Source: a virus
Length of the DNA: 64,000 bases
IMG/VR virus record: IMGVR_UViG_3300025381_001071
Strand: one strand, 5' to 3'
The number at the start of each line of letters is the position of its first letter. The first letter of the stretch is position 1. The notes under the pieces were generated by a model that ran no database searches, was not told where the DNA came from, and saw nothing but the letters and a program-made list of their open reading frames with translations. A program made the translations under genes and the position numbers. This document shows, in pieces, positions 45,121 through 64,000 of the stretch.

Positions 45121-45128
45121 ATATTTCC

Positions 45129-45794: not shown

Positions 45795-46118
45795 TTAAGG
45801 TTTACGCTCGATATCGGACTCTTCGCAACGAGTTCCGTATTGTATTTCAACAATCTTTAAGGGGTTATCAGTGTTGTTGATCAACTGATGCCATTCGCCC
45901 ACAAGTATAGTTTTGCTTTGTTGTTCTTTAAGGGTTGTTCTACCAGGATTCCAATCTATAGTAGCAGTGCCTTCACTGACAATCCAGTATTCATTACGAT
46001 GTTCGTGTCGTTGCATACTCAACTGTTGTCCCGGCATAACAGTTAATTCTTTAACTTTCATACCCGGTACTTCGTGTAATACTTGATAGTAGCCCCACGG
46101 GCGATTTGTTTTTGTCAT
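45795..46118 (-). CDS. Cupin, mannose-6-phosphate isomerase type II C-terminal-like
   Basis: RPWGYY, VKEL.V.PG..LS.QRH.HR.E.W, IVEIQYG..C.E.DIER. Confidence 0.88.
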   Translation of the reverse strand: MTKTNRPWGYYQVLHEVPGMKVKELTVMPGQQLSMQRHEHRNEYWIVSEGTATIDWNPGRTTLKEQQSKTILVGEWHQLINNTDNPLKIVEIQYGTRCEESDIERKP

Positions 46119-46666
46119 TTTTCACCTATAATCATAAAGCGTGTAAAACTCCAATTCGGATATACAAACGCTTTTTCACCACTATACATCAGCTGTCGAA
46201 CTGGGTACATTTTTACAAAATCTTCAAGACAACTCGAATGAACATGATGGTCTTCATGAGGCATATTGTTACCTTGTAGAACAACTGCGGTTCCTTTGGG
46301 AATGTTATTCCACCAATCCATGTTATCAAAATGTTCTGTACTGGTGTTTATGATCATATCCATATTACGCAAAGATGTTATTGATTTATTACAATCTTCT
46401 GTAAAGGCTTTAAACTGCCAATCCTGCCATACCCAGTTTTCATTTATCATATCTGCCACAGGTTGGCACGTTGGATCCATATCTAAACTAACACAGCGAT
46501 CTATTTGTATGTTGCCACGAACTTTGAGTAGGAAATGTGTTATACCATACCAACCGCCGTAGATACCTAAGTAATCTATTTGTGTGTAAATTTTTTCTAG
46601 TTCTTCACACAACCAAATCTTACTGCCTATTTGTCCACTGCTAAATGCGTCTGGATTAATTTCCAT
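46115..46666 (-). CDS. Class I SAM-dependent methyltransferase-like protein
   Basis: IYGGWYG motif I-like, SLDMD, IINTSTEH. Confidence 0.6.
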   Translation of the reverse strand: MEINPDAFSSGQIGSKIWLCEELEKIYTQIDYLGIYGGWYGITHFLLKVRGNIQIDRCVSLDMDPTCQPVADMINENWVWQDWQFKAFTEDCNKSITSLRNMDMIINTSTEHFDNMDWWNNIPKGTAVVLQGNNMPHEDHHVHSSCLEDFVKMYPVRQLMYSGEKAFVYPNWSFTRFMIIGEK

Positions 46667-47202
46667 TATACGTAGTATAGTTCCGGGTATTCGATTAATA
46701 CATGCACACCGCCCTGTTTATAGGCTTTCTTATAGGTATCTACAATCTTGGCATGATCTTTTAAATCATAAAACTTAATGTTTGGGCACATAGATTTGAA
46801 CTCTTTTAAATAGTTGCCTTTATGCTGATGACCAGGATCTAATGGCTTGTCTGAACCTTTGCCCAATCTAATGATCATGTTGGCCTGTTGACCAGTCATT
46901 AGTTCATACTTGTCTACATGGTTAATCAGTTGATTAGCAGCCAATATAATAAAGTCCCAACGAGGATAGAATGTAACCACGGTCTTACCAGTCATAGCAA
47001 TACCTAAACTCATGCCCATTTGTGTTTCTTCCATGACGGGTAGCTCAATCATTTTATCTTTGGACACATTACCCAATGTAGTACTCATAGGATTACCAGC
47101 ATAAACAATCTGTTGTCCTATAAACACTGTGTTGTTTTGCTCTCCCAAATAGGTCATTGCCTGTGTTAAAGCATCTTTATACGGTTGCGTTGTTGTTGTC
47201 AT
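46666..47202 (-). CDS. TPP-dependent enzyme beta subunit (pyrimidine-binding domain only; E1-beta/transketolase-like)
   Basis: IELPVMEETQMGMSLGIA, FYPRWDFI..A.NQL.NH, PGHQH. Confidence 0.85.
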   Translation of the reverse strand: MTTTTQPYKDALTQAMTYLGEQNNTVFIGQQIVYAGNPMSTTLGNVSKDKMIELPVMEETQMGMSLGIAMTGKTVVTFYPRWDFIILAANQLINHVDKYELMTGQQANMIIRLGKGSDKPLDPGHQHKGNYLKEFKSMCPNIKFYDLKDHAKIVDTYKKAYKQGGVHVLIEYPELYYV

Positions 47203-48058
47203 TTTCTATTCGTCTAATAATGTTTTGAGCCATAACTCTGTGGCAAGTTAAACTTGGATGATGATCTTTAGGAGTTACTTCAAACGAAAACTCATCCCAT
47301 TTAACTGTGAGTTCTGGATTATAACCTTTACTGTGCATGGCACCAGGCCACATTAAATCTGTAATGCTTTTATAGTTTTTACCATTGTAGTTAAATGTAA
47401 CAAATCTTTGAGATAACCAAAGATCCTGCTCAATCAAGGGAATATACTCTTCAGGCCAAGTAAAGATTAGGGTCTTTATTCCTTTACTTTCACAAGTTTG
47501 CAGGAACTGTTTGACATTGTCAAGACCCTTTTGAATGTATTGTGCTAAAAACTGATCTAATGACAAACCTTGATCTTCTAAATACTTTAGGAAATGCTGT
47601 TTATGTTCGTCTTTATTAATTTCGTGAAAAGGTAAGTAATGCGTTTTTCCGCTGTGTTCAAATACAACATGATCCCGCTGCCATTGAGTTAGTTGAAATA
47701 CAACATGGGACACTTCTTCGTATTCAATAAATGGAATACTATGTCCACTATACCAAGCACCTTCAGATCTATCAGTAAAACACTTGGTCCACCATGTAAC
47801 AGCACCTTCATTAGATCCACCATTTTGAGGATGAACAAACTCAAAACTATTAAAATGGTCAGCAACTATTCTAGGATAGCGAACGCTTTCCATAAACTTG
47901 ATGTGTGCATGTTTAACTAGTTTAGGATCGTATTGATCCGGAGGAGGTTCTCCTATAGTGGGCAGGTTACTATAATAATATAGACCCTGTCCCCACGTAA
48001 AGGAACATCCAGCAAATATCATGCCTTTGGTAATTCTACAGTTTTCTTTACTTTGCAT
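47177..48058 (-). CDS. SGNH-like protein, paralogue 1
   Basis: FAGCSFTWGQG...NGGSN...DHHPS. Confidence 0.65.
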   Translation of the reverse strand: MQSKENCRITKGMIFAGCSFTWGQGLYYYSNLPTIGEPPPDQYDPKLVKHAHIKFMESVRYPRIVADHFNSFEFVHPQNGGSNEGAVTWWTKCFTDRSEGAWYSGHSIPFIEYEEVSHVVFQLTQWQRDHVVFEHSGKTHYLPFHEINKDEHKQHFLKYLEDQGLSLDQFLAQYIQKGLDNVKQFLQTCESKGIKTLIFTWPEEYIPLIEQDLWLSQRFVTFNYNGKNYKSITDLMWPGAMHSKGYNPELTVKWDEFSFEVTPKDHHPSLTCHRVMAQNIIRRIENDNNNATV

Positions 48059-48989
48059 TATCTTGTTCTATTCTTTTAATAATGTTGTCAGCCACAACTC
48101 GATGACACTTTAAACTAGGATGGTCATCCAAAGTTGGGACTTCGAAATTATCAGTATCAGTGGACAATTTAAACCCGGGTACAGTCATTAAATCATCCAT
48201 AGATAGATAGTTCTTACCTTCGTAGTCGAAAGTAATAAATCTTTCAGAAAACCAACTATCCTTTTTAATATATTCTAAAAAATCATTAGGCCAAGTTAGA
48301 ATATAAGTTTTAATATTTTTATCTTCTAGTTGTTGTAATAAAGTTTTTACCGATGCTAAACTGTTTAGCAATACTTCTTCATTGTGTTGACCCACGGTTT
48401 TATTGTTCAAATTTAACCAATCCAAATATAAATCTCTAAAAGGTCCATCTGGATTCCATAGTAAACTAAGAGTAATTTCTTTCTGTATATTGCCTACCTT
48501 CAACTGTACCGTATCTCGGTTATAAGGAGTTAGTTGAAGAATAAAGTGTGATATATCATTAGTATCAATATATTCTATCTTATCAAACCATTTTGGATGT
48601 GATTCAAAAGTTTCTTTTCCGGAGTCTTTAAAATAATCATAGGCATAGGCATGAACATATTTTGTCGGTTTTCCTGGATTAAGTAAAACAGAGTTTTGTC
48701 TACTAAAACATTCAGACCAATACTCATACATTTTTTTATTACTGCCACCATTTTTGGCGTGTACTATTTCATAGGTATTAAAATGATTGGCAACAAGTCT
48801 AGGATATCGTACAGCATCTTTAAAAGCAACATGTGCCCTGGTTATAAAAATAGGGTTAAAATTATAAGGCTTGTCTTCTATAACAGTTTTAGAGTTAGTA
48901 TAATAATGTAGATTTTGTCCCCATGTAAAGGAACATCCTGCAAATACCATGCCCTTTATAGGAGTTGCATCTGGTTTATATTTCATCAT
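48048..48989 (-). CDS. SGNH-like protein, paralogue 2
   Basis: FAGCSFTWGQN...NGGSN...DDHPS. Confidence 0.65.
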   Translation of the reverse strand: MMKYKPDATPIKGMVFAGCSFTWGQNLHYYTNSKTVIEDKPYNFNPIFITRAHVAFKDAVRYPRLVANHFNTYEIVHAKNGGSNKKMYEYWSECFSRQNSVLLNPGKPTKYVHAYAYDYFKDSGKETFESHPKWFDKIEYIDTNDISHFILQLTPYNRDTVQLKVGNIQKEITLSLLWNPDGPFRDLYLDWLNLNNKTVGQHNEEVLLNSLASVKTLLQQLEDKNIKTYILTWPNDFLEYIKKDSWFSERFITFDYEGKNYLSMDDLMTVPGFKLSTDTDNFEVPTLDDHPSLKCHRVVADNIIKRIEQDNAK

Positions 48990-49687
48990 ATATTAAAATG
49001 TTGCATTATTTCAATAGCCAGCGCCCTAGCTGATTCTAACCCAGGATGTTTTTGATTATGAAATAACGAAGTATCCTGTGTTGCTGCAATAATTTCTTCT
49101 TTAATAGACAACTCTCGTTGTATGATATCCTCGGATATATCGGGCCAATCCCACAAAGAACCTTTACCTCTTTCTAAAAATTCAAATGCTTGACTAGCGG
49201 GCACATCTTTTCCAGTTATTTTAGAACGCAGATTATCTACTGTATAATCTGCCCAATCTAACATATGCTTTTTAGATTTGTGTAGGGGGGCATGGCCGCC
49301 CATTATAGCCCATTTGACAGTAGGATGATTATTTTTAATATCAGTGGCCCATTGATACATTCTTTCGGCAGTAAGATCTATTACTGCATCATATCCTAAT
49401 GTAGAAAACTTTTCTACTTCTGGAGGGGTAAAATCTCTAATCAACTCAGTATGAAACCAAATAACGATATCTGGATACATTGTGGTATCTTTAGTGGCAT
49501 ATAACAATGTTTCTAGTTGTTGAAACTGATAGTTATTACTATTACCTCCCCAAGATTTATTAAATGTAGGATGTCCTTTCTTGAGAAACTGATATTCAAA
49601 CCACTCTGCAATAGAGGTATCTCCTCGTGGCCAAAGATGACAAGGAACGGTTCCCCATGTATCCCCTATTATAACTATATTAGCCAT
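48986..49687 (-). CDS. SGNH-like protein, divergent paralogue 3
   Basis: IIGDTWG...GGNSN...QKHPG (Thr at the nucleophile position). Confidence 0.55.
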   Translation of the reverse strand: MANIVIIGDTWGTVPCHLWPRGDTSIAEWFEYQFLKKGHPTFNKSWGGNSNNYQFQQLETLLYATKDTTMYPDIVIWFHTELIRDFTPPEVEKFSTLGYDAVIDLTAERMYQWATDIKNNHPTVKWAIMGGHAPLHKSKKHMLDWADYTVDNLRSKITGKDVPASQAFEFLERGKGSLWDWPDISEDIIQRELSIKEEIIAATQDTSLFHNQKHPGLESARALAIEIMQHFNI

Positions 49688-50627
49688 TTTTATCCTTTTC
49701 TATTTTTTTAATAATGCTGTCTGCAAATAAACGATGGCAATGTAGACTCGGATGACTATCCACTGGTGGAGTTTCAAAATGTTCATAATCACCTAATATC
49801 TCTAACCCAGGGTTTTTTTGAAACATATCTTCGATACATTCGTAGGTAGAATTGTTATATTCAAATGTTATAAGTTTATCTGCCAAAAGTTCATCTTGTT
49901 TGATTAACGGTACATAGTGGGGAGACCATGTCATGATGTAGGTCTTTATTCCTTTTTCTTCTAAACCTTGTAAAAAGGTTTTAACATTGTTAAAATCGTT
50001 GGCAATAAATTCATTGTGGAACTGAAAAAGATCCATATTTTTATTCAACAACCATTCAGAAAATAAATCTTTATAGTGTTGACTAGGATTCCAAACATCA
50101 AATAGTCTCAACGGACGACCTACTCTATAGATAAAATCAAAGTTTGTAATACGACTTCTCGGCCAATAGGTCAGTTGAAAAACTACATGCGAAATCTCTT
50201 GGTGTTTGGTTTTTGTTAGTTGATCAAACCAAGTGGGATAATCTTGAGCAATTTGAACATCTGTCTTACCTGCAATATCCGGAGCTAGATGATCGTATAA
50301 AGTATTCCTTATAAAGGATCCATGATTATTATCATCGTTAAGGCTTTCTGTCCAATACTCAACCATCAAGTCATTTGCACCACCGTTACTGGGATGAACT
50401 ATTTCAAAAGAATCAAAATGATCAGCAACTAGTCTAGGAAATCTATGCCTGTTTTTAAACTTTAGATTAGCAGTAGTATAAAGCCAAGGGGAATATCCCT
50501 GTTCTTGTTCTTTATAAGTTTCTAACACAGGAGAAAAACTATACCACCAAAGTCCTTGACCCCAGGTAAAAGAATCACCTATAAACAACATGCCCTTTTT
50601 AGATTCAGGGTTTCCACGATATTTCAT
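49680..50627 (-). CDS. SGNH-like protein, paralogue 4
   Basis: FIGDSFTWGQG...NGGAN...DSHPS. Confidence 0.65.
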   Translation of the reverse strand: MKYRGNPESKKGMLFIGDSFTWGQGLWWYSFSPVLETYKEQEQGYSPWLYTTANLKFKNRHRFPRLVADHFDSFEIVHPSNGGANDLMVEYWTESLNDDNNHGSFIRNTLYDHLAPDIAGKTDVQIAQDYPTWFDQLTKTKHQEISHVVFQLTYWPRSRITNFDFIYRVGRPLRLFDVWNPSQHYKDLFSEWLLNKNMDLFQFHNEFIANDFNNVKTFLQGLEEKGIKTYIMTWSPHYVPLIKQDELLADKLITFEYNNSTYECIEDMFQKNPGLEILGDYEHFETPPVDSHPSLHCHRLFADSIIKKIEKDKNG

Positions 50628-51058
50628 TTTTTCTTTTTCTTAGGTTCGCTGGATTCGCCCCAACTGATTTCCCAATCTTTAAAGTCAGCGGCAAGACAAT
50701 CCACTTTATAATCCAATCTGCCACCTACTACTTCTTGTATTTTGTTTTTAGCAGTATTACGAATACCATTTAATCCGTGTGTAAGTGCTAGATTACCTTC
50801 TTTAAGTCCGCGACGGTAAGCAGATTCATTGTGCCAAATATGTAAATTCATTTGACTCACTACCACAATAGCACGAATAGTTTCTGCTGTGATCTCAGCA
50901 TCTGCTTCATTGAGTATAAGCTGAATATCGTGTACAATATCCGCAATCTCCTGCGAATATTCTGCCTTGTGTTCTGTAATGAAAACTTCTTTTAGTTGAA
51001 CAATGCTCAATCTATCAATAAGGTCGCCTAGTGTATGCAAGTATCTTCTCTCAGTCAT
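50624..51058 (-). CDS. Helical hypothetical protein (DUF4254-like)
   Basis: TLGDLIDRLSIVQLK...NLHIWH.E...N..RN..KN.I pattern. Confidence 0.5.
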   Translation of the reverse strand: MTERRYLHTLGDLIDRLSIVQLKEVFITEHKAEYSQEIADIVHDIQLILNEADAEITAETIRAIVVVSQMNLHIWHNESAYRRGLKEGNLALTHGLNGIRNTAKNKIQEVVGGRLDYKVDCLAADFKDWEISWGESSEPKKKKK

Positions 51059-52955: not shown

Positions 52956-52966
52956 ATAGTCCTTTT

Positions 52967-53662
52967 TTAGTTTGATTTGATTAGCATTACTTTTAAACCT
53001 GGATCAGTAGGGAACATATCCACTATTTTGACCAGTTTAAAGTTTTCTTGTGTTAGTATATCTTCTAATATACCTTTTTGATTTAGCTGTGCAGTTATAA
53101 AAATATCTGCATCATCTGTTAGATGAGGGCGTATGTTGGCAAAAAACTCTTTATGAGCAACAAAATCAGTGTCAATCATTAATCTTTTGCCTAGATCATA
53201 CATTTCCTTAGGCATATTGGGATCTACTACATATCCGCCGTCGTTAATCGCATTAGGGGGATTACCGACTACTAGGTCCCATATTTCAGTGTCCGGAATA
53301 CCCGAAATGGTAGGTGTTACATATCCTGTAAACACTTGATCGTAGTTTAGTTTTTTTGCATTTTGAAATCCAGTATACACAGCAAGATCATATATATCAG
53401 AAAATGTGAGTTCGTTACTGATGTCTTGTGTTAATATTTCCCAGCCTATTCTGCCATGTCCGCAACACCATTCAAAACATCTATTATATTTTTTCTTGGC
53501 GCCGTATTTGTCGATAGCTTCTAAAAAGTAAGGAAGGTGGAAATCACCGCCACCTTTAAGATACCATTTATGGTCTATAAACTTGCCGTTGGTTAAACAG
53601 GTACGATTATGCTCGTTTAGATTTAATCCATCCAGTACAGGATTGGTAGGTACAAGGTTCAT
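52967..53662 (-). CDS. SAM-dependent methyltransferase
   Basis: FEWCCGHGRIG motif I, FSDI, DLVVGNPP. Confidence 0.8.
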   Translation of the reverse strand: MNLVPTNPVLDGLNLNEHNRTCLTNGKFIDHKWYLKGGGDFHLPYFLEAIDKYGAKKKYNRCFEWCCGHGRIGWEILTQDISNELTFSDIYDLAVYTGFQNAKKLNYDQVFTGYVTPTISGIPDTEIWDLVVGNPPNAINDGGYVVDPNMPKEMYDLGKRLMIDTDFVAHKEFFANIRPHLTDDADIFITAQLNQKGILEDILTQENFKLVKIVDMFPTDPGLKVMLIKSN

Positions 53663-53669
53663 ATTATAT

Positions 53670-56013: not shown

Positions 56014-56017
56014 ATGA

Positions 56018-57436: not shown

Positions 57437-58814
57437 AGTTTAATAGTTCTTGAAAGGGGTTATAGTTTTTAAAAGTATGTAGATGGTTCTGATTGTGTAC
57501 AAGTACATCAGTAATAGAATGGTACCAATCATTTAACTGACCAATAGGTAGTTGAGCAATCTTTAATATTTCTTGTTTGATTAATGCAAATCTCTTTTTA
57601 TGATCTTTTTCTAGATCGTAACTTTCGTCGATGAATGGATGAAAAGTTTTAAATCCCAGTTGATGTAGTTTATTTAATGCGGCATAGTTACCCATGTAAA
57701 TAAATGGCTGTAGGTTCAATATAGGTCTCCATGTCTTTTCAGAGAAGAATGGAGTTTCATCTTTATCAAAATCTGTTTCAGTTGTGATGTGTACATAACT
57801 GTATCGATAAAACTCTTTTTTATTACTGTATACAGGAAAGAATGTAAATCGCTGTTCGTCAGGCAAATGATCAGTATCTAAATGATAAGGTACGATACTA
57901 GCAATATCTTCTACCATTTCATCTGTGCCTTCCATGACCCTGTTTAACATATCAACGGTATCATGTTTAACATCAAATAGGAAACTAAAAAACCCTTCCC
58001 GTAACAACTTATGTTCTATAGCCAGTTGACATAGGCCTATGCGGTGGGGGCGGCCCATTCTATTAAAACTTAAAAATCTTTTAGATCTAATAGAGTATCG
58101 ACTAATATCACCGGGTTTAACATAATCACTAACATAGTTTAGTCCTGTATCAAACGGATACTTATCCATAAGATTTGCTGTTTGATATAAGGCAATATCG
58201 CTACCTAATAGGGTCATGCTAGTTTTAATATCGTATCTTACATTACCCTGTAAGCATACAATGTTACTACCTTTTATTCCTAGGTTCAATAGCAGTTTCT
58301 CCACATCTTCTAAAATAGATGGTTCGATAGAAGGATCAATCATGTTAACCAATAATAGTTTAACACGACCTGTTTGGAGTAGTTCTAATATTTTAGGAGT
58401 TAATGAGTTCCCGATAGAATGACGGTATTCGGTACCATCGACCATTATATCTGTTTCATTTAAAACAAACTGTACAGTATTACATTCTAACTCAATGGGA
58501 TAATAGTAACTGCCATCTGTAACTTGATCTTCACTTACTATATTATCTAACCCAAATGACTCTTTAAAATGATAAAAGAAGTTAGAGTTTCTAAAATAAT
58601 ATCCAGATTTAGGATTGTTATAGTAATAACAGTCATCGATTTCTTTTATTCTTAGAAAATCGTCACTGTGCTGTAAATGATCGTTGATTATTTTATCCTG
58701 CATCCAGTTAACTAGTGCAGGATGTAATCCGTTAGCTAATGGGTATCTTATATTATCTATAGTATACCAGTTAGAATAAACTAACTTAAAAGGCGATCCA
58801 CTTGCCTGAACCAT
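57417..58814 (-). CDS. Glycosyltransferase-like protein (SEKT family), tandem paralogue
   Basis: FLSFNR...HR...VHITTET...FFSEKTWRPI..LQPFIYMG...GFKTF...IDESYD. Confidence 0.55.
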   Translation of the reverse strand: MVQASGSPFKLVYSNWYTIDNIRYPLANGLHPALVNWMQDKIINDHLQHSDDFLRIKEIDDCYYYNNPKSGYYFRNSNFFYHFKESFGLDNIVSEDQVTDGSYYYPIELECNTVQFVLNETDIMVDGTEYRHSIGNSLTPKILELLQTGRVKLLLVNMIDPSIEPSILEDVEKLLLNLGIKGSNIVCLQGNVRYDIKTSMTLLGSDIALYQTANLMDKYPFDTGLNYVSDYVKPGDISRYSIRSKRFLSFNRMGRPHRIGLCQLAIEHKLLREGFFSFLFDVKHDTVDMLNRVMEGTDEMVEDIASIVPYHLDTDHLPDEQRFTFFPVYSNKKEFYRYSYVHITTETDFDKDETPFFSEKTWRPILNLQPFIYMGNYAALNKLHQLGFKTFHPFIDESYDLEKDHKKRFALIKQEILKIAQLPIGQLNDWYHSITDVLVHNQNHLHTFKNYNPFQELLNYESKQI

Positions 58815-59412
58815 AGTGCGGGTATTTTGATTTATATTTGTAGTAGACTACATCTTCCGGAATATCGCGTTGCTTTTTCCAAGTTGCCTTAGTAGGTGTA
58901 TAGGTTGATACTCCGTTGTCTTCTACAACAAAATACAATGGTAAATCAAAGTTTCTAGCATACTTGTGTGCTTCGTAAAAAGCACCAGTTTCAAAACTCA
59001 TATCGCCGATAAAACACCATACCTTTTCGTCGCTGCCAGAGTCCTTGATACTTTTTGCCACACCCAGAGCAATAGCAATAGTAGAAGATACAATGGCGCT
59101 AGAATAAAAGTGTTCATCGATATTGCAGATAGTAATGCTCTTACCAGCAAGGATTTCATCTTCTAGCCATACAGGGTCAATGCCTTTAAGCAATGCATGA
59201 TAATGACTGCGCCAAGTAGAAAACACCCAGTCAGTGGCCTTAATGCGCTTAAAGATATCGATCAAGGGTTTTTCGTTGCCGTCCGACAAATGCACCGGGC
59301 CACGAATCTTGGCATCTTCCCAATGCTCCACAATGCGTTGCTCGAACGCCTGTAGTTGTTCTACTGTATATCCGTGTTTACGGACAACGGGATATTGTTT
59401 TAAGTTTTTCAT
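58786..59412 (-). CDS. TPP-dependent enzyme alpha subunit (E1-alpha-like, short)
   Basis: GPVHLS.GNE, STWRSHYHAL, FIGDMS...VVEDN TPP motif; ATGA coupling to the rmlC stop. Confidence 0.88.
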   Translation of the reverse strand: MKNLKQYPVVRKHGYTVEQLQAFEQRIVEHWEDAKIRGPVHLSDGNEKPLIDIFKRIKATDWVFSTWRSHYHALLKGIDPVWLEDEILAGKSITICNIDEHFYSSAIVSSTIAIALGVAKSIKDSGSDEKVWCFIGDMSFETGAFYEAHKYARNFDLPLYFVVEDNGVSTYTPTKATWKKQRDIPEDVVYYKYKSKYPHYGSGKWIAF

Positions 59413-59948
59413 CTGTCTCTTTTTTGTAATATAGGAGTTGTGGTTGGCCAATCAATGTCAAAGGACTTCCAGTTAATAACACCTTGTTTGTTTTCATCAA
59501 CATAGTCACCTTGATAAAACAAGTTGTAATGGAAGACACAGTCAGTTAACGCATAGTGTCCATTGGCAAACCCCGGAGGGACTAATACTTGATCGCGTGT
59601 TCGTTCACTGATAATATATGATTCCCATTTGCCATAGTTAGCCGAATCGGGTCTAGCATCGAGTACAACTAGATAGATATCTCCTACTAATGCCTGTACA
59701 AGTTTCCAAGTTTTATCATCATAATGTAATCCACGAAGCACACCCTGATATGACTTTGAAAATCTAACATGTGTATTGACATCGTTGGGCATTAATGCAT
59801 TAACAGGATGTGCCGTGTTATGATATGTTGTAAAGATTTCGCCACGGTATTCTCTGTATACACTGGGAGTATACACAGGCACTTCATTACCAAATGTTTT
59901 TAGATAGGATGTGCTGAACTCATCCCATTTTTTATCTTTATAACTCAT
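59409..59948 (-). CDS. rmlC: dTDP-4-dehydrorhamnose 3,5-epimerase-like cupin
   Basis: YRGEIF, S.SYQGVLRGLH, KLVQAL.G.IY.V.LD.R..S..YG, VPPGFANGH. Confidence 0.9.
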   Translation of the reverse strand: MSYKDKKWDEFSTSYLKTFGNEVPVYTPSVYREYRGEIFTTYHNTAHPVNALMPNDVNTHVRFSKSYQGVLRGLHYDDKTWKLVQALVGDIYLVVLDARPDSANYGKWESYIISERTRDQVLVPPGFANGHYALTDCVFHYNLFYQGDYVDENKQGVINWKSFDIDWPTTTPILQKRDR

Positions 59949-62389
59949 CCTTTTACTACCCTATCAGAAAGATATCTAACCAATTCTTTACTATGGGCTT
60001 CATCTTTATAAATGCCCAATAGGTGATTACGATTATGCACTAATATTTCTTCCATCTGCCAATACCATTTGTGTATTTCTTCTTTGCTCATAGAACAAAT
60101 TCGTTTGATTTCAGCAAACATCATTCGCATACGAAGATCGTTGTCTAATACATTATCAAAACTTTCGTCAATCCAAGGATCAAATGTCCTAAACCCAATA
60201 TTACGCAGTTCTGCTAATGCACCTGGGAAGGCAATGAAAATAAAGGGATGGAAGTTGGCAATGGCCTTGAATACTTTTTCAGTAAACGATTTATATTCAC
60301 CGTGTATGTATCCTTCGGAAGCAATATACAAGTAAGCATTTTTACTAGATTTACTGCCGTACTTGTCTCCCCAACCACTGGTATTATGATATCCTGCATC
60401 GGGTTCGTCCTGCATACGGTGTGGCAAAACTTCATGTAATCGATCTATCACTGAGTTATCGCAATCAAATCCGTAGCTTTTAGACACATAATAGCCATAG
60501 TCTCTACCACGATAATCTAACATAGACCAATCACCTAGATCTAACAAGTTTTCTTTAGCCATTTGGTAAATCATTGCCACTCTATGATCTCTGCTTCTTC
60601 TATTAGGAAACATAAAATGATTACGTCTTAGATAGTTTCTACTGTCATAGAACTGTTGTTCTGTTAGCCCCGAACCAGTTTTGTTTTTAAAGTGTGCAGA
60701 TATATTAACCAACAGGAATGGCATGTTTTTAACTATCATGCATCGTTCGTGTTCGGGGAACCAAGAGTTATATACTTGTTCTGCGTTAAAACTGTTGATA
60801 GATAGAACAATCTGTTCTTTAGGAATACCGCTACGTTGTAGACCTCTGTGGAAGTCCTCAAACTCATAACGTTCAATACACGGCTCGTTGGCCCAATCTA
60901 AAAAGATAATAGCGTTCTTTTTACGAACATCTTCCAATGCCTGTGCAGACATATGTTTCCAAAAGTATTCGCCATTTAGTTTACTGCCTACATGATCGGT
61001 CCCTGTAAACTTACCAAAGTGCAAAGTCACTTTAATAGGATAGATATATTTGTGATATCCATCTGCATGTAGAGTTTGATTTCCAAAGTATAAAGAGTTT
61101 TCATAGATATCTACTAGTTCTTTATAGGACCAATGCCGTAAGTGAGATCCTCCCATACGTAGGCTATTAGGCCAATCTCCCATTTGATCACCAAACATTT
61201 GTTTCAATGGACTATTGGGAGAATCTAACTGTTCTTCGTAAAAACTTTCAGAACTAAGTCTATTTGAATAGAGTGTGTGCAAATAGTTTACAATGCCCAT
61301 TTCTGGTGCCAGAGCGTTAGGCAATACAATATTAGGCATTACATAATCGTAAAAGAACGGTAATCTAGGTTTTTTTTCGACCACGGTTATTTGACTATTA
61401 GGTACTGGTACAGGCACTGGTGCTGAAACTAAAGTCTGTACTGGGGCAGGTGCAGGCACCGGAGTAGGGGCCGGAGTTGTATTAATAACTACTACAGGGG
61501 GTAGTTGATTAGAACTTCCTCGCATCTCTGTAGGAGGAGTGATCAAAGAGTATGGATCTATCGTTCTTTCCTGAGTAGGCACTGCTGGTGTATTAGCTAC
61601 AATAGCCGGTAGTTGTATAGGTGATGGAACTTCGTTTGTAACAGAAGAAGGATAGGCTTTATAATAAAAATCCCGTAGTTTTTCTGCAAACAGTTTATGT
61701 GGTTCAGCACCGTGATGCCAAAACTCAGGACCTGCATTTCTATACCCTTCGTTTTTATATTTCCAATAAAAACTTTCTTTATTGTTCATAATGTCCATAT
61801 AGACATCTTTATCAATTTGATTTATATAAAAGTTTAGATGTGGGCTTTCGCTGAACATCTCCATGGTATTGCACATCAAATACCTGATATTTTTAGTTTG
61901 TAAAAAATATTGTAGTTGTAGTACAAGGTTAGCACTTGCTATTTCCATGTAAACAACATTCTTTGCTATAAATTCTTGGCATCCCGCAATAATAGTTTTT
62001 TCTTCTTCGTGGCCGCCTTTATACCCCATGTTAACACGGAGGAAATCCATATCAACTTTTGATATATAATCGCTATAAGGATTCCATTTATCATACCAAA
62101 TAGGTCTGTCAACAGGCACCTCCATTCGAAAACTCTCAGTCCATGCAACTAATATTTCCAAATCCATTTTTTCAGGATCGTAAAAAGTATTAACCCATTC
62201 AATAATGACACGGGTAATAGTTGCGTTGGTAGATCCGTGAGATGCAATATTAAGTGCTTTACGGCCAATCTTTTCCGCAAATAGATTACCAAAAGAATTT
62301 TTTCTATTATATTCGCTGTCTTGAGTTCCGTCCATTTCTGATCCGGATGCATGACTACAGCCTGCAATTAATAATAACTTTTCTTTCAT
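59945..62389 (-). CDS. Fusion protein: SGNH-like domain, Pro-rich linker, glycosyltransferase-like (TEK) domain
   Basis: N-terminal AGCSHASG...HH; linker PAPTPVPAPAPV; C-terminal FPNRR..HR...SFTEKVFKAI..FHPFI...GFRTF...IDESFD. Confidence 0.65.
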   Translation of the reverse strand: MKEKLLLIAGCSHASGSEMDGTQDSEYNRKNSFGNLFAEKIGRKALNIASHGSTNATITRVIIEWVNTFYDPEKMDLEILVAWTESFRMEVPVDRPIWYDKWNPYSDYISKVDMDFLRVNMGYKGGHEEEKTIIAGCQEFIAKNVVYMEIASANLVLQLQYFLQTKNIRYLMCNTMEMFSESPHLNFYINQIDKDVYMDIMNNKESFYWKYKNEGYRNAGPEFWHHGAEPHKLFAEKLRDFYYKAYPSSVTNEVPSPIQLPAIVANTPAVPTQERTIDPYSLITPPTEMRGSSNQLPPVVVINTTPAPTPVPAPAPVQTLVSAPVPVPVPNSQITVVEKKPRLPFFYDYVMPNIVLPNALAPEMGIVNYLHTLYSNRLSSESFYEEQLDSPNSPLKQMFGDQMGDWPNSLRMGGSHLRHWSYKELVDIYENSLYFGNQTLHADGYHKYIYPIKVTLHFGKFTGTDHVGSKLNGEYFWKHMSAQALEDVRKKNAIIFLDWANEPCIERYEFEDFHRGLQRSGIPKEQIVLSINSFNAEQVYNSWFPEHERCMIVKNMPFLLVNISAHFKNKTGSGLTEQQFYDSRNYLRRNHFMFPNRRSRDHRVAMIYQMAKENLLDLGDWSMLDYRGRDYGYYVSKSYGFDCDNSVIDRLHEVLPHRMQDEPDAGYHNTSGWGDKYGSKSSKNAYLYIASEGYIHGEYKSFTEKVFKAIANFHPFIFIAFPGALAELRNIGFRTFDPWIDESFDNVLDNDLRMRMMFAEIKRICSMSKEEIHKWYWQMEEILVHNRNHLLGIYKDEAHSKELVRYLSDRVVKG

Positions 62390-64000
62390 ACTTTACTGCT
62401 TCTTTTTTTAATATTATCAAATACTATAGCATATACAGGAACTTCAGGACTAGAGGGAATTTCTTTAGTAGTTGATTTATCCGGTATGGCTACTTCATAT
62501 TGTCTATAATCGCCCCAATCTCCCTCGCCTATATATCTATAGGTAAAGGAAAAATCAAGTTTATTAAATGTTGCTTCTTCATGAAGCATATGCGAAAAAC
62601 TTCTATCACTTCTGCCAGTATCACCCCATTCTTCAGGCTTGGCTAGTTTACGTGCTCGTTTGGCAGTATTACTTTGCATACGACTAAAATCTTGTGCATA
62701 GAAAGGCCCGCGCCGAGGATCGTCCTCGTCTCTATCATCATAGGGATTTTCAATTTGATTAAACTCATAATCAAAGTCTGCTTGCCAGCGTCCTTCATCT
62801 GTGATATCAAACTTAAATGTAGCGGTATACATACCAGGACCAAACTGTCCACCGAACTCATTTTGATCAATATCTGGATTAAACTTAATCTTAGCAGAAT
62901 ATCCGCCTCTAGCACGCCATAACATTCTAAAGAAAGGCCACATTTCATTTACTAATGTGTCAGCAAATGGATTAATATCAGGTTTGATAATGTTGTAGTC
63001 AAACTTTTCATATCCCACTTCGCGCACTGTACTAGGATTATCTAACACAACCTTATAGTGATCTACTGCTAACTTATGACGTCGTGGATAACTAAAAGGA
63101 ACTTCCACTGTGTCAATAATCATATCTAAGAATATAGAAAATGCTTTGACACGGGTCATAACATGGGTACCGCCTAGCTTAAAGTCCTGTGTAATCCAAT
63201 GATTTTGATACTTGTGATCACTTAGTCCAAACTTTTTAGGATTCTGTCCGATAATAGTTTCTGGTCCAAGACCAAAGCCAAATCCAGACCCTACATTATT
63301 GATATTCATGTTACGAACACGCCATAATAATGTCATACTGTCGGCTGCATCTTGGAAATCTTCTGTAGGGAAACCCATGATCCAGTTAGTGGCAGCATAG
63401 ATTCCTACTTCTTTGCCGTCACGGAAGTTCTGTTCCATTTCAGCAATAGTAACACCTTTGTCCATGTCATCTAATACTTTCTGACTACCACTTTCGATAC
63501 CATAGTTCAGAATGATACAACCACCTGCTTTAAGGTCTTTGAAGTATTCAAGATCCATGCGGCCGTCGCAACGAGCATAACCAGTCCAATGAATCTTTAA
63601 GTCTTTGGCCACAACAGCCTTACAGAACGCACGTAGTTCTTTTAGGTTACCATTAACTAAACTGTCAATGAACCAAATAATGTCTGTGCCTTTGTTGTAG
63701 TACAGCCATTCTACTTCGGTGATAAGGTCCACAGCCTGACGCTGACGATACTTCCAAAAGTGTGTTTCTTCACAGAATGTACATTTAGCAGTACAGCCAC
63801 GACTAATCTCACTGTTAACACCGTTAGGCAACTTATACTGATTGAAGTCAATACTTTCATAATCAGGCATAGGTAAGCCATTGATATTGATACGTTGATC
63901 TTCAGGCTGTGTTACATACTTTGGTCCTTTGAGAACAACACCGTTTTCTACTTCATCTAAAATCTCTAACAGTACTTGCTCACCCTCTCCGTTGACAACA
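62386..64000 (-). CDS. B12-binding-domain radical SAM enzyme, partial (5' end beyond the window)
   Basis: SRGCTAKCTFC (CxxxCxxC), YGIESGS; the frame stays open upstream of the track start and reads VVNGEGEQ (GEGE motif). Confidence 0.85.
   Translation of the reverse strand, partial: VVNGEGEQVLLEILDEVENGVVLKGPKYVTQPEDQRININGLPMPDYESIDFNQYKLPNGVNSEISRGCTAKCTFCEETHFWKYRQRQAVDLITEVEWLYYNKGTDIIWFIDSLVNGNLKELRAFCKAVVAKDLKIHWTGYARCDGRMDLEYFKDLKAGGCIILNYGIESGSQKVLDDMDKGVTIAEMEQNFRDGKEVGIYAATNWIMGFPTEDFQDAADSMTLLWRVRNMNINNVGSGFGFGLGPETIIGQNPKKFGLSDHKYQNHWITQDFKLGGTHVMTRVKAFSIFLDMIIDTVEVPFSYPRRHKLAVDHYKVVLDNPSTVREVGYEKFDYNIIKPDINPFADTLVNEMWPFFRMLWRARGGYSAKIKFNPDIDQNEFGGQFGPGMYTATFKFDITDEGRWQADFDYEFNQIENPYDDRDEDDPRRGPFYAQDFSRMQSNTAKRARKLAKPEEWGDTGRSDRSFSHMLHEEATFNKLDFSFTYRYIGEGDWGDYRQYEVAIPDKSTTKEIPSSPEVPVYAIVFDNIKKRSSKV

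What the first reader, a model, noticed from the sequence alone, without database searches (positions are those of the whole stretch)
45795..64000. Phage-encoded pathway for an unusual, heavily tailored glycan (top candidate system)
At least 19 contiguous co-oriented genes supply every step type: three NDP-sugar SDRs, RmlC, an M6P-isomerase cupin, TPP alpha and beta subunits, two SAM methyltransferases, a B12 radical SAM, two 2OG oxygenases, five SGNH domains and three GT-like domains. This resembles a bacterial O-antigen or antibiotic-sugar locus, or a giant-virus fibril glycosylation locus, more than typical phage DNA glucosylation. Possible targets are virion fibres (Thr-rich collagen), host surface conversion, or DNA. 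Internal sigma70 promoters suggest early precursor synthesis. Novelty is unverified.
Basis: partly seen in the sequence, partly recalled or inferred. Interest (0 to 1): 0.85.

Follow-up and report, generated by a model that had tools for sequence, protein, structure and literature searches.

The report
Jumbo-phage branched-sugar glycosylation gene cluster
An uncultured freshwater jumbo phage carries a 29-kb, 27-gene operon that most likely builds an unusual carbon-branched, heavily tailored sugar and attaches it to a cytoplasmic target, probably its own tail fibres; the core is shared by at least 179 other viral contigs and nobody has tested what it makes.

Summary
The co-oriented array runs past the window end: 27 genes over 29.4 kb (contig 3584-32985), with 19 start/stop overlaps and a largest gap of 48 bp. 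Its upstream third, outside the window, adds a GT-A glycosyltransferase and six radical SAM genes, four of them in NF033640 (N-terminal twitch).

Confirmed parts:
- RmlC-like epimerase.
- A minimal split PDH-E1-like TPP enzyme (alpha 221 aa, beta 178 aa; predicted to pair).
- Three NDP-sugar SDRs, two 2OG oxygenases and a B12 radical SAM.
- Three paralogues of a virus-only GT-B family with a GT10-like motif.
- SGNH-like paralogues, supported by motifs only.

The core (RmlC, TPP alpha/beta, three SDRs, GT-B, one radical SAM) is syntenic in 60-77 of 80 related viral loci. Its closest cellular counterparts lie in surface-glycan islands of Pelagibacteraceae.

No enzyme in the cluster has a membrane segment. 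No nucleotidyltransferase or 4,6-dehydratase was recognised, and sigma70-like sites are not enriched.

The most likely function is synthesis of a two-carbon-branched 6-deoxyhexose glycan put on virion fibres. Host-surface and DNA targets remain possible.

This scan has noted similar radical-SAM plus glycosyltransferase cassettes on other DNA before.

The parts
62386..64000 (-). B12-binding radical SAM enzyme (class B, methyltransferase-like). The full protein is 746 aa. The window holds only its C-terminal 537 aa, and the gene starts at contig 14154, outside the window.
   Evidence: PF04055 59 bits and PF02310 38.6 bits on the full protein. Best NCBIfam matches are RiPP/PhpK-type C/P-methyltransferases, all below the equivalog cut-offs. 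Found in 10 of 80 related loci at 66-73% identity.
59945..62389 (-). 814-aa fusion protein: SGNH-like N-terminal domain (1-245), Pro/Val/Ala-rich linker (245-345) and GT-B glycosyltransferase domain (about 448-814).
   Evidence: The C-terminus is paralogous to the 465 and 472 aa proteins. The sequence was read. In relatives the two halves are separate genes of about 250 and 475 aa. The SGNH reading of the N-terminus is motif-level only; hhalign was not significant.
59409..59948 (-). RmlC-like NDP-4-keto-6-deoxyhexose 3,5-epimerase (179 aa). It overlaps the TPP alpha gene by 43 nt.
   Evidence: PF00908 103 bits. TIGR01221 gives 99 bits, below its equivalog cut-off. The RGLHYD catalytic-His motif is present. 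Found in 68 of 80 related loci, median 69% identity.
58786..59451 (-). Minimal TPP-binding (PP-domain) subunit, PDH-E1-alpha-like, 221 aa.
   Evidence: PF00676 50.8 bits. The Mg-TPP motif GDM-x26-EDN aligns with GDG...ENN of human E1 alpha. 179 viral relatives at 62-78% identity. Predicted to pair with the beta subunit.
57417..58814 (-). GT-B glycosyltransferase of a virus-only family (465 aa) with the GT10-like motif VSET...SEKTWRP.
   Evidence: At least 950 homologues, all unnamed and without Pfam hits. AF2 model with pLDDT 94.2. All PDB matches are GT-B: Foldseek OtsA E 7e-6; VIA T4 beta-GT Z 10.5, EXT1-EXT2 Z 10.4, alpha1,3-FucTs Z 9.5-9.9. BFVD shows kin in uncultured phages, then fucosyltransferases and GT10 of giant viruses.
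56018..57436 (-). Second GT-B paralogue (472 aa).
   Evidence: 38% identical to the 465 aa protein over its full length. It is a member of alignment A2.
55027..56013 (-). Extended SDR resembling GDP-fucose synthase (328 aa), with His-x5-Lys where Tyr-x3-Lys is expected.
   Evidence: PF01370 118 bits. GDP-L-fucose synthase is the best NCBIfam and PDB match. The alignment puts His at the catalytic Tyr position. Found in 72 of 80 related loci, median 64% identity.
54353..55030 (-). 2OG-Fe(II) oxygenase, prolyl-hydroxylase-type (225 aa).
   Evidence: PF13640 43.9 bits. HxD...H residues present. Accessory: found in 28 of 80 loci.
53699..54352 (-). 2OG-Fe(II) oxygenase paralogue (217 aa).
   Evidence: PF13640 38.5 bits. 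34% identical to its neighbour.
52967..53662 (-). Putative class I methyltransferase (231 aa) with a GNPPN motif.
   Evidence: PF05175 at 21.4 bits, below the cut-off. PrmC-like at E 7e-8. Sequence read. Found in only 1 of 80 related loci.
51987..52955 (-). Extended SDR resembling GDP-fucose synthase (322 aa).
   Evidence: PF01370 156 bits. Fcl-like at E 1.5e-41. Found in 74 of 80 loci.
51055..51990 (-). Extended SDR, GalE/RmlB-like (311 aa). It has YAETK but no Asp-Glu dehydratase pair.
   Evidence: PF01370 115 bits. Sequence read. Found in 74 of 80 loci, and 45-52% identical homologues lie in Pelagibacteraceae loci.
50624..51058 (-). Conserved 144-aa protein of unknown function.
   Evidence: No significant family match. 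Found in 32 of 80 loci at a median 79% identity.
47177..50627 (-). Four tandem genes. Three are SGNH-like paralogues (315, 313 and 293 aa), interrupted by a 233-aa protein with GDT...GGNSNN...HP motifs.
   Evidence: Paralogy at 37-38% identity. 93 homologues, all unnamed. Invariant S19, N81-G-G, D290 and H292 in alignment A1. Atlas neighbours carry DUF6071 or Lipase_GDSL. No Pfam or PDB sequence match.
46666..47202 (-). Minimal TPP pyrimidine-binding (Pyr-domain) subunit, E1-beta-like, 178 aa. It lacks the C-terminal domain of E1 beta.
   Evidence: PF02779 33 bits. The catalytic Glu (PVMEE) aligns with BCKDH/PDH E1 beta. Found in 64 of 80 loci, median 72% identity. Complex prediction.
46115..46666 (-). 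183-aa protein, possibly a small SAM methyltransferase.
   Evidence: No family match. Glycine-rich LGIYGGWYG motif read. Found in 9 of 80 loci.
45795..46118 (-). Cupin of the mannose-6-phosphate isomerase / ManC C-terminal type (107 aa). Last gene of the array.
   Evidence: PF01050 100.8 bits. TIGR01479 C-terminal region at E 2e-27. Found in 1 of 80 related loci.

Best explanation
The window end cuts through a 27-gene, 29.4-kb late-operon-like array of a freshwater jumbo phage. The array makes and transfers an unusual glycan.

Core pathway (inferred from the families):
1. The host supplies an NDP-4-keto-6-deoxyhexose, possibly GDP-linked.
2. The RmlC-like enzyme epimerises it.
3. A minimal heteromeric TPP enzyme (alpha 221 aa plus beta 178 aa) decarboxylates pyruvate and adds the two-carbon unit to the keto carbon. 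PDH-E1-like pairs are proposed to do the same in paulomycose and eurekanate biosynthesis.
4. Three SDRs reduce or epimerise the product.

Accessory enzymes then tailor the sugar or the finished glycan: a B12 radical SAM, five further radical SAM enzymes (four with an N-terminal twitch domain), two 2OG oxygenases, methyltransferase-like proteins and SGNH-like acyl-handling proteins.

One GT-A and three virus-specific GT-B glycosyltransferases attach the sugars to a cytoplasmic acceptor. The most probable acceptor is the phage's own fibre proteins.

Confidence by layer:
- Shown: gene content, folds, conservation and synteny.
- Inferred: order of steps, nucleotide carrier and product.
- Least certain: the acceptor.

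I put about 0.9 on 'NDP-sugar tailoring plus glycosyl transfer', about 0.65 on the two-carbon branch and about 0.45-0.5 on virion fibres as the target.
For: Anatomy:
- 27 co-oriented genes, 19 start/stop overlaps, largest gap 48 bp.
- Families and folds: (Pfam/NCBIfam); GT-B model pLDDT 94; GT-A model pLDDT 92.6 with an IDGDN (DxD-type) motif.

TPP enzyme:
- The cofactor motifs are kept in both halves.
- Predicted alpha-beta pairing scores 0.85 against a best control of 0.00 among 3 controls. That mark was reached by 58 of 80 solved complexes and 2 of 110 mismatched pairs. The counts hold only roughly because my own alignments were used. Solved E1 complexes exist, so the pass may reflect likeness to them.
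- The RmlC gene overlaps the TPP alpha gene.
- Precedent: Plm8/Plm9, AviB1/B2 and kosinostatin E1 alpha/beta pairs are credited with adding a pyruvate-derived two-carbon branch at C4 after a 3,5-epimerase (PMC4802897).

Conservation:
- 179 viral contigs carry TPP alpha at 62-78% identity.
- Within 80 fetched loci: RmlC 68, TPP beta 64, the three SDRs 72-74, GT-B 77, radical SAM 63. Synteny is close in L082, L085, L086 and L088.
- Relatives add a GT7-lectin fusion, a carbamoyltransferase, a GT2 and a cytidylyltransferase-like gene.
- Fusions of the GT-B domain with SDR or methyltransferase domains exist.

Cellular counterpart:
- Pelagibacteraceae chromosomal loci hold adjacent minimal TPP alpha/beta, RmlC-like and SDR genes among GT2 genes and an ABC exporter.

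Cytoplasmic acceptor:
- No cluster enzyme has a predicted membrane segment.

Fibre link:
- An Ig-like 785-aa protein (1213 and 1892 aa in L007 and L008) lies directly upstream of the GT-A gene.
- Collagen-like tail-fibre giants lie about 5-7 kb downstream.
- In L022, two tail-fibre genes lie immediately upstream of the conserved block that leads into the GT-A and radical SAM genes.
- In L080/L081, a 6506-aa protein and a Peptidase_G2-like protein lie upstream.

Radical SAM enzymes:
- The nearest solved relatives by profile include enzymes that act on sugars and nucleotides: viperin, BlsE and the BtrN twitch domain.
Against: - No product, donor or acceptor has been observed.
- No nucleotidyltransferase or 4,6-dehydratase was recognised, so the entry substrate is a guess.
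- Two of the three SDRs have non-canonical catalytic motifs.
- Adjacency to fibre genes is circumstantial. Large phage genomes often place accessory islands near variable tail genes.
- SPASM/twitch radical SAM enzymes are more often peptide maturases.
- The top VIA match of the GT-B model is T4 DNA beta-glucosyltransferase, although it is tied within 1 Z unit with unrelated GT-B enzymes.
- The GT-A fold is shared with nucleotidyltransferases.
- No expression data exist: no RNA run holds the sequence.
Confidence: 0.5

Rival explanations
1. Host-surface remodelling. The phage makes the branched sugar and feeds it, directly or through its soluble GTs, into the host's own LPS, capsule or S-layer glycan pathway during infection. 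This could block superinfection or retain progeny, as has long been proposed for cyanophage 'LPS' gene clusters.
For: - The closest cellular homologues of the core (TPP alpha/beta, RmlC-like, SDRs) sit in Pelagibacteraceae surface-glycan islands with GT2 genes and an ABC exporter.
- Cyanophages S-SM2 and P-TIM68 carry a related short transketolase-like gene inside annotated sugar/LPS clusters.
Against: - None of the 27 proteins has a membrane segment.
- No gene recognisable as a polyprenyl-phosphate glycosyltransferase, flippase, polymerase or exporter was found in the phage cluster or in the related viral loci annotated.
- The GT-B family has at least 950 homologues that are all unnamed, and its nearest Atlas clusters are all viral.
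- N_Twi radical SAM scored above its cut-off in only 1 of 151 Pelagibacteraceae genomes, and that one is a phage-like contig.
Confidence: 0.2
2. DNA hypermodification. The GTs decorate modified bases of the phage genome with a complex glycan that protects it from restriction and CRISPR systems, extending T4-type glucosylation. The radical SAM enzymes would prepare the base or tailor the sugar.
For: - T4 beta- and alpha-glucosyltransferases are among the best structural matches of the GT-B model (Z 10.5 and 9.4).
- A DNA ligase and nucleotide-metabolism genes are nearby.
- The acceptor must be cytoplasmic.
- Earlier notes of this scan proposed DNA targets for some radical-SAM plus GT cassettes elsewhere (unchecked).
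Against: - No thymidylate-synthase-type hydroxymethylase was found in the contig or in the complete relative G006. It is present only in G005, and there about 110 kb from the cluster.
- No TGT/DpdA was found in five records, with a valid control.
- No Tet_JBP was found, but that control was uninformative.
- Four GTs plus acyl, carbamoyl and lectin-domain accessories are more typical of oligosaccharide coats than of base modification.
- The Z scores are tied with many unrelated GT-B enzymes.
Confidence: 0.1
3. Peptide or protein radical chemistry. The six radical SAM genes are RiPP-like maturases that cross-link or epimerise a peptide or a structural protein, and the sugar genes are a separate neighbouring module.
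For: Below-threshold NCBIfam matches of the N-terminal twitch/SPASM region and of the B12 enzyme are mostly to peptide maturases such as DynA, WgkB, StsB and the RiPP C-methyltransferases.
Against: - The radical SAM genes are translationally coupled to the GT and sugar genes in a single array.
- One rS460-type gene belongs to the conserved sugar core in 63 of 80 loci.
- In all of the roughly 70 other viral loci inspected, the radical SAM genes follow a GT-A gene.
- No short precursor-like ORF was noticed.
- Profile matches to solved structures include sugar- and nucleotide-acting enzymes.
Confidence: 0.07

Closest known systems
PDH-E1 alpha/beta-like two-carbon branching enzymes of actinomycete deoxysugar pathways (Plm8/Plm9 for paulomycose, AviB1/AviB2 for eurekanate, the kosinostatin pair)
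   Same: Separate alpha (PP-domain) and beta (Pyr-domain) TPP subunits are encoded among a 3,5-epimerase, NDP-sugar SDRs, methyltransferases and GTs. The proposed chemistry is pyruvate decarboxylation and transfer of the C2 unit to C4 of an NDP-4-keto-6-deoxyhexose (PMC4802897).
   Different: - Here both subunits are cut down to the bare cofactor domains (221 and 178 aa, against about 320-365 aa for E1 subunits in the PDB).
- The two genes lie 12 kb apart.
- The host is a phage, not an antibiotic producer.
- The product and the nucleotide carrier are unknown.
- No sequence comparison with Plm8/9 or AviB1/2 was possible here.
YerE/YerF (yersiniose A pathway)
   Same: The same logic: TPP-dependent attachment of a two-carbon branch to an NDP-4-keto sugar, followed by reduction (own knowledge; cited in PMC4802897).
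   Different: YerE is a single-chain acetolactate-synthase-type flavoprotein, not an E1-type heteromer. A YerE-like gene does occur in the Pelagibacteraceae island but not in the phage cluster.
Cyanophage 'LPS'/sugar islands (Synechococcus phage S-SM2, Prochlorococcus phage P-TIM68)
   Same: Large phage-encoded islands of nucleotide-sugar epimerases and GTs that include a transketolase-like gene 32-35% identical to the beta subunit here. Their function is also untested.
   Different: They have a different gene set (GT11, GT25, heptose isomerases, nucleotidyltransferases). S-SM2, P-TIM68 and the other cyanophages are not among the five phage records that matched the N-terminal twitch radical SAM query.
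Virus-encoded virion glycosylation (mimivirus fibrils and chlorovirus capsid; mycobacteriophage capsid and tail glycosylation, Freeman et al. 2023 as cited in PMC12619734)
   Same: The virus brings its own GTs, and in giant viruses its own NDP-sugar pathways, to coat structural proteins in the cytoplasm. The PBCV-1 A64R GT-A domain is among the fold matches. A mimivirus-like genome holds a member of the GT-B family.
   Different: No phage case known to me includes C-branching, radical SAM tailoring or about 27 genes. The acceptor here is not demonstrated.
NCBIfam NF033640 (N_Twi_rSAM) and solved twitch or nucleotide-sugar radical SAM enzymes (BtrN, viperin, BlsE)
   Same: Four paralogues score 297-381 bits against a cut-off of 170. 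The CxxxCxxC motif and four N-terminal cysteines are invariant. Profile matches to viperin, BlsE and the BtrN twitch domain were found.
   Different: NF033640 is defined by computation only, and I found no paper on its function. The domain order is reversed relative to BtrN, with the twitch domain first.
GT10 alpha1,3-fucosyltransferases
   Same: GT-B fold with Z 9.5-9.9 to the H. pylori, human FUT9 and plant FucTs. The invariant VSET...SEKTWRP block resembles the FENS...TEKxWRN motif of GT10 (motif from my own knowledge). This fits a GDP-sugar donor.
   Different: No Pfam PF00852 match and no sequence match to any PDB chain. There is an extra N-terminal region, and the family appears almost confined to viruses.

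Membership tests
PDH-E1-type heteromeric TPP enzyme | Alpha subunit with the Mg-TPP binding motif GDG-x(24-27)-NN | tested here: met
   GDM-x26-EDN aligns with GDG...ENN of human E1 alpha; the Asp and the second Asn are kept. PF00676 scores 50.8 bits against a cut-off of 22.
PDH-E1-type heteromeric TPP enzyme | Beta subunit Pyr domain with the cofactor-activating Glu | tested here: met
   PVMEE aligns with PLCEQ of BCKDH E1 beta. E58 is invariant in 25 sequences.
PDH-E1-type heteromeric TPP enzyme | Alpha and beta chains form a complex | tested here: met
   Prediction only. Score 0.85 against a best control of 0.00 among 3 controls; the mark was reached by 58 of 80 solved complexes and 2 of 110 mismatched pairs. 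The counts are rough because my own alignments were used, and the pass may reflect memory of solved E1 complexes.
Pyruvate dehydrogenase complex E1 proper | Full-length subunits, including the beta C-terminal domain that docks on E2 | tested here: not met
   The beta subunit is 178 aa and matches only the Pyr domain. The alpha subunit is 221 aa, against 365 aa in human E1 alpha. Both are far below the equivalog cut-offs.
RmlC (dTDP-4-dehydrorhamnose 3,5-epimerase) | Family HMM above cut-off and the catalytic His motif | tested here: inconclusive
   PF00908 scores 103 bits against 27, but TIGR01221 scores 99 against an equivalog cut-off of 155.75. RGLHYD is present. Substrate nucleotide and epimerisation positions were not testable.
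NF033640 N-terminal twitch radical SAM | HMM above cut-off, CxxxCxxC, and N-terminal auxiliary-cluster cysteines | tested here: met
   297, 381, 355 and 367 bits against a cut-off of 170. C140, C144 and C147, and also C25, C43 and C88, are invariant; C85 is nearly so.
Class B (B12-binding) radical SAM | B12-binding domain followed by a radical SAM core | tested here: met
   PF02310 scores 38.6 bits (cut-off 32.1) and PF04055 59.2 bits (cut-off 29.5) on the 746-aa protein. No equivalog was reached.
GT-B glycosyltransferases / GT10 | Two-Rossmann GT-B fold; the GT10 family HMM and donor-binding motif | tested here: inconclusive
   The fold criterion is met. The motif resembles GT10. PF00852 is not matched and the Atlas similarity is only 0.79. 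I file it as GT-B, with GT10 membership unproven.
GT-A (GT2-like) glycosyltransferases | GT-A fold with a DxD motif | tested here: met
   Model pLDDT is 92.6. Matches include B4GALNT1 (Z 11.1), WrtF, SunS and ppGalNAc-T. The consensus of alignment A3 shows IDGDN. Caveat: IspD-type nucleotidyltransferases score Z 9-10 as well, and there is no Pfam hit.
SGNH/GDSL hydrolase superfamily | Blocks I (GxS), II (G), III (GxN) and V (DxxH), and the SGNH fold | tested here: inconclusive
   Invariant S19, N81-G82-G83, D290 and H292 in 33 sequences. Atlas neighbours carry DUF6071 or Lipase_GDSL. No Pfam or PDB sequence match was found. The 233 aa protein and the 814 aa N-terminus rest on motifs only.
Bacterial O-antigen/capsule locus (Wzx/Wzy- or ABC-dependent) | Initiating polyprenyl-P glycosyltransferase plus flippase/polymerase or ABC exporter | tested here: not met
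   No hydrophobic segment was found in any of the 26 proteins from the GT-A gene to the cupin gene, and no such Pfam family was matched. The Pelagibacteraceae counterpart does have an ABC exporter.
T4-type DNA glycosylation system | Base-preparing enzyme (dCMP/dUMP hydroxymethylase, TET or DpdA) together with a DNA GT | tested here: not met
   PF00303 is absent from the contig (28% complete) and from the complete relative G006. PF01702 is absent from five records with a valid control. PF12851 is absent, but its control was silent. Incomplete genomes limit the strength of this result.

The most novel reading that the evidence does not exclude
A large clade of freshwater and marine jumbo and T4-like phages coats its fibres with a hypervariable glycan. 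Its signature sugar is a two-carbon-branched 6-deoxyhexose made by a minimal TPP carboligase borrowed from host (SAR11-type) surface-glycan islands. The expanding arrays of N-terminal-twitch radical SAM paralogues carry out oxygen-independent tailoring of sugars (epimerisation, deoxygenation, oxidation or C-C bond formation), either on NDP-sugars or on the finished glycan. That would be a function not yet assigned to any radical SAM family and a new layer of phage-host surface mimicry.
Probability: 0.25. Interest if true: 0.85.

Novelty: new variant of a known kind. Interest (0 to 1): 0.68.

Why it matters
Virus-encoded glycosylation is established for giant viruses and, recently, for mycobacteriophages. 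No phage pathway with carbon-branching and radical chemistry has been characterised.

This cluster ties together three large, unstudied protein families:
- a virus-only GT-B family with at least 950 members;
- the NF033640 radical SAM family, with more than 5000 homologues in the search here;
- a minimal two-domain TPP enzyme found on at least 179 viral contigs.

They sit in one syntenic, testable operon, with a cellular counterpart in the hypervariable surface-glycan islands of Pelagibacteraceae. Working out the product would:
- assign functions to these families;
- show what abundant freshwater jumbo phages put on their particles, their hosts or their DNA;
- possibly yield compact carboligases and radical sugar-tailoring enzymes.

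Tried and rejected
Searches that found nothing or did not run:
- Megablast of the region against 50,697 phage records: no match.
- tblastn of a 786-aa neighbouring protein against phages: no match.
- The search for related loci with the 465-aa GT-B as a single protein: no pattern hit.
- Profiles A1 (SGNH-like) and A2 (GT-B) against PDB sequences: nothing credible. Pfam on all 33 A1 members: nothing credible.
- phmmer of the 785-aa protein and of a twitch radical SAM against the PDB: nothing.
- Relatives cannot be drawn for a virus record.
- The look-up of encoding contigs for an L022 protein returned only a 2.7-kb contig.
- L080, L081 and L121 are not held for whole-record searches.
- Literature searches combining radical SAM, glycosyltransferase and phage terms, or branched-chain sugar, thiamine and phage: zero papers.
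- The Cell Reports 2024 paper on DNA glycans is not held.

Weak or negative tests:
- hhalign of the 814 aa N-terminus and the 233-aa protein against the SGNH-like profile: not significant. It only placed the C-terminal His-Pro region at block V.
- Sigma70 promoter enrichment: 78 sites against 75 +/- 8.

Readings rejected:
- That one of the three SDRs is the 4,6-dehydratase. None has the Thr-Asp-Glu signature, by motif reading only.
- That the TPP pair is a fragment of a PDH complex, because the E2-docking parts are missing.

Host: Pelagibacterales is a lead only, not a conclusion. Two SAG contigs and MAG bins carry relatives, but the phage GC is 37-40% against 26-27% in those genomes.

Full report
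**Where the window lies**

The window is the reverse strand of positions 14780-78779 of a 99,019-bp IMG/VR virus record that CheckV rates 28% complete, so the phage is probably a jumbo phage. The rest of the window holds ribonucleotide reductase, an ATP-dependent DNA ligase and very large tail-fibre-like proteins. The same DNA occurs in at least 20 freshwater metagenome runs and in no RNA run.

**Checking the observation**

All ORFs between 45795 and 64000 are on the minus strand. Pfam and NCBIfam confirm the following:
- three extended SDRs;
- an RmlC-like epimerase;
- a ManC-C-terminal cupin;
- a PDH-E1-alpha-like TPP subunit and a Transket_pyr (beta) subunit;
- two PF13640 2OG oxygenases;
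- a radical SAM enzyme.

The array does not stop at the window end. In the contig it runs from 3584 to 32985 and holds 27 genes. Nineteen gene junctions overlap and the largest gap is 48 bp.

The part outside the window encodes:
- a 785-aa protein with an Ig-like (ASH / choice-of-anchor D) stretch;
- a 669-aa protein;
- four paralogues of NCBIfam NF033640, the N-terminal-twitch radical SAM family (297-381 bits against a cut-off of 170);
- a 348-aa radical SAM enzyme;
- the N-terminus of the B12-binding radical SAM enzyme, including its B12 domain.

Sigma70-like sites are not enriched: 78 were found against 75 +/- 8 in shuffles.

**The proteins without family matches**

A self-comparison shows three paralogue sets: 465 aa / 472 aa / C-terminus of 814 aa; 315 / 313 / 293 aa; and the four twitch radical SAM enzymes.

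- *GT-B family.* The 465-aa family has at least 950 homologues, all unnamed and without Pfam hits. In the Atlas its neighbours are all viral, and some are fused to an SDR or to an MTS methyltransferase. An AF2 model built on 44 sequences (pLDDT 94.2) matches only GT-B glycosyltransferases:
  - Foldseek: OtsA at E 7e-6.
  - VIA: T4 beta-glucosyltransferase Z 10.5, EXT1-EXT2 Z 10.4, alpha1,3-fucosyltransferases Z 9.5-9.9, T4 alpha-glucosyltransferase Z 9.4. These are tied within about 1 Z unit.
  - BFVD: the family in uncultured phages and one mimivirus-like genome, followed by giant-virus fucosyltransferases and GT10.
  - The invariant block VSET...SEKTWRP resembles the GT10 donor-binding motif (my own knowledge). 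PF00852 is not matched, so I call the family GT-B and GT10-like, not GT10.
- *GT-A domain.* The C-terminal 235 residues of the 669-aa protein form the part conserved in other phages. The model (pLDDT 92.6) has a GT-A fold, with matches to B4GALNT1 (Z 11.1), WrtF, SunS, ppGalNAc-T and PBCV-1 A64R. IspD-type nucleotidyltransferases score Z 9-10 as well. The alignment consensus carries FLSYDEP and IDGDN (DxD) motifs.
- *SGNH-like family.* The 315-aa family (93 homologues) keeps Ser19, Asn81-Gly-Gly and Asp290-x-His292 in 33 sequences. That is the SGNH block pattern, but no HMM or PDB sequence match backs it.
- *The 814-aa protein.* It is a fusion of an SGNH-like N-terminus, a Pro/Val/Ala-rich linker and a GT-B domain. 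In relatives the two halves are separate genes.

**The TPP enzyme**

- The alpha subunit (221 aa) keeps the Mg-TPP motif: GDM-x26-EDN aligns with GDG...ENN of human E1 alpha.
- The beta subunit (178 aa) keeps the cofactor-activating Glu of the Pyr domain.
- Both lack the parts that tie E1 to a dehydrogenase complex.
- A complex prediction scored 0.85, with a best control of 0.00 among 3 controls. That mark was reached by 58 of 80 solved complexes and 2 of 110 mismatched pairs. The counts hold only roughly because I supplied the alignments, and solved E1 structures may be remembered by the model.
- In actinomycete deoxysugar pathways, E1 alpha/beta-like pairs (Plm8/Plm9, AviB1/B2, kosinostatin) are credited with attaching a pyruvate-derived two-carbon branch to C4 of an NDP-4-keto-6-deoxyhexose after a 3,5-epimerase (PMC4802897).
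- Here the RmlC-like gene overlaps the alpha gene by 43 nt.

**Conservation**

- *Twitch radical SAM query.* One paralogue retrieved 74 viral loci. Nearly all show the module: a GT-A gene of about 300 aa, two rS460-type radical SAM genes and three or four twitch radical SAM genes, often with GT-B genes of 320-350 aa and an SDR.
- *TPP alpha query.* It retrieved 179 viral contigs at 62-78% identity. Counts in the 80 fetched loci:

| Gene | Loci of 80 |
|---|---|
| RmlC | 68 |
| TPP beta | 64 |
| Three SDRs | 72-74 |
| GT-B | 77 |
| Radical SAM | 63 |
| 144-aa protein | 32 |
| SGNH-like | about 30 |
| 2OG oxygenase | 28 |
| B12 radical SAM | 10 |

- The closest relatives keep almost the whole gene order.
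- More distant relatives swap accessories: GT7 fused to a ConA-like lectin domain, a carbamoyltransferase, a GT2, a cytidylyltransferase-like protein and other radical SAM enzymes.

The system therefore has a conserved core and a variable tailoring shell.

**Cellular counterparts**

- A scan of species-representative genomes found TPP alpha relatives in Pelagibacterales MAGs and SAGs.
- In a sample of 151 Pelagibacteraceae genomes, 19 have a match. About 14 of these carry a short (about 200 aa) homologue at 43-60% identity, distinct from their ordinary E1 alpha.
- Two chromosomal loci (GC 26-27%, one on a 1.3-Mb contig) place adjacent minimal alpha and beta genes beside the following:
  - RmlC-like and SDR genes;
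  - a B12 radical SAM gene;
  - two GT2 genes;
  - an ABC exporter;
  - a YerE-type TPP enzyme;
  - a split transketolase.
- By contrast, NF033640 scored above its cut-off in only 1 of the 151 genomes, and that one is a phage-like MAG contig.

The phage thus combines a cell-type branched-sugar pathway with virus-specific GT and radical SAM families.

**The acceptor**

- None of the 26 proteins from the GT-A gene to the cupin gene has a hydrophobic segment. No flippase, polymerase, exporter or polyprenyl-phosphate GT is present. Assembly and transfer are therefore cytoplasmic.
- For virion proteins:
  - The Ig-like 785-aa protein (1213 and 1892 aa in L007 and L008) directly precedes the GT-A gene.
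  - Collagen-like (Gly-X-Thr/Gln) tail-fibre giants follow 5-7 kb downstream.
  - In a 354-kb relative, two tail-fibre genes lie immediately upstream of the conserved block that leads into the GT-A and radical SAM genes.
  - In 280-322-kb relatives, a 6506-aa protein and a Peptidase_G2-like protein lie upstream.
- Against DNA:
  - No thymidylate-synthase-type hydroxymethylase was found in the contig or in a complete relative.
  - No DpdA/TGT was found.
  - No Tet_JBP was found, but that control was silent.
- For the host surface: the Pelagibacteraceae context and the cyanophage S-SM2 / P-TIM68 sugar islands, which hold a related transketolase-like gene.

My estimates are fibres about 0.45-0.5, host surface 0.2, DNA 0.1 and peptide chemistry 0.07.

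**Gaps in the pathway**

- I recognised no nucleotidyltransferase.
- By motif reading, no 4,6-dehydratase is present. The entry substrate is probably a host NDP-4-keto-6-deoxyhexose.
- Two SDRs are closest to GDP-fucose synthase, the GT-B motif is GT10-like and the last gene is a ManC-type cupin. Together these hint at GDP-linked sugars. This is inference.
- The roles of the radical SAM enzymes are unknown. By profile, their nearest solved relatives are 8vpo (unnamed), viperin, BlsE, SkfB and the BtrN twitch domain. No paper on NF033640 was found.

**Novelty**

- Large sugar islands in cyanophages, giant-virus fibril glycosylation and mycobacteriophage virion glycosylation are known.
- A marine survey noted T4-like genomes with up to 12 radical SAM genes without explaining them (PMC5332604).
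- Earlier notes of this scan describe radical-SAM plus GT cassettes in 55 other genomes, some next to tail-fibre genes. Those notes are unchecked apart from the adjacency I re-tested.
- New here: the link of that cassette to a conserved TPP-dependent branching pathway, its spread over at least 179 viral contigs, and its cellular counterpart.
- I rate it a new variant of a known kind.

Noticed in passing
window 44794-45707 (minus strand): Directly after the glycan array come two genes: a 192-aa SleB-like cell-wall hydrolase with an N-terminal hydrophobic segment, and a 108-aa protein with two hydrophobic segments. Together they look like a signal-anchor endolysin plus holin lysis cassette.
   Followed up: partly
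window 55027-56013 and 51987-52955: The two GDP-fucose-synthase-like SDRs lack the canonical Tyr-x3-Lys. In the 328-aa protein a His aligns with the catalytic Tyr (H-P-G-W-T-K), yet the protein is 64% conserved across 72 loci. It may be an SDR with altered chemistry.
   Followed up: partly
L175 (G080:C1:85000-104999) and L176 (G042:C1:11000-30999): Pelagibacteraceae chromosomal glycan islands hold three different TPP enzyme types side by side: a minimal alpha/beta pair, a YerE-like ALS type and a split transketolase. A B12 radical SAM gene is also present. This suggests several C-branched sugars in SAR11-type surface glycans.
   Followed up: partly
L165/L169/L177 (G009 contig 6), L164 (Saccharibacteria MAG), L166 (Klebsiella MAG): Short contigs carrying this phage cluster at 72-76% identity are binned into bacterial MAGs of unrelated phyla. 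This is probably phage DNA mis-binned into genomes. Two Pelagibacter SAG contigs with more distant copies may be chromosomal.
   Followed up: partly
L002:867-1589 (contig 867-1589, opposite strand, outside the window): Upstream of the array, and divergently oriented, is a third 2OG-type oxygenase (PF13759, TIGR02466 family), followed by small genes. It may or may not belong to the system.
   Followed up: no
window 59945-62389, residues 292-344 of the 814-aa protein, and window 19418-19843: The Pro/Val/Ala-rich linker of the SGNH-GT-B fusion is 46% identical over 57 residues to part of a 141-aa protein encoded among the structural genes. This is either low-complexity similarity or a shared tether.
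   Followed up: no
L022:3-6308 and the matching positions of about 45 other loci: A conserved five-gene block (about 317, 105, 270, 280 and 115 aa) always precedes the GT-A and radical SAM module in the T4-like and jumbo relatives. It has no PHROG match and is absent from this window's phage.
   Followed up: partly
window 28843-34071 and 35499-38525: The collagen-like stretches of the two fibre proteins (10-28 Gly-X-Y repeats) are almost Pro-free and rich in Thr, Gln, Ser and Ala. The two PF13640 oxygenases are therefore unlikely to be classical prolyl hydroxylases of these segments.
   Followed up: partly
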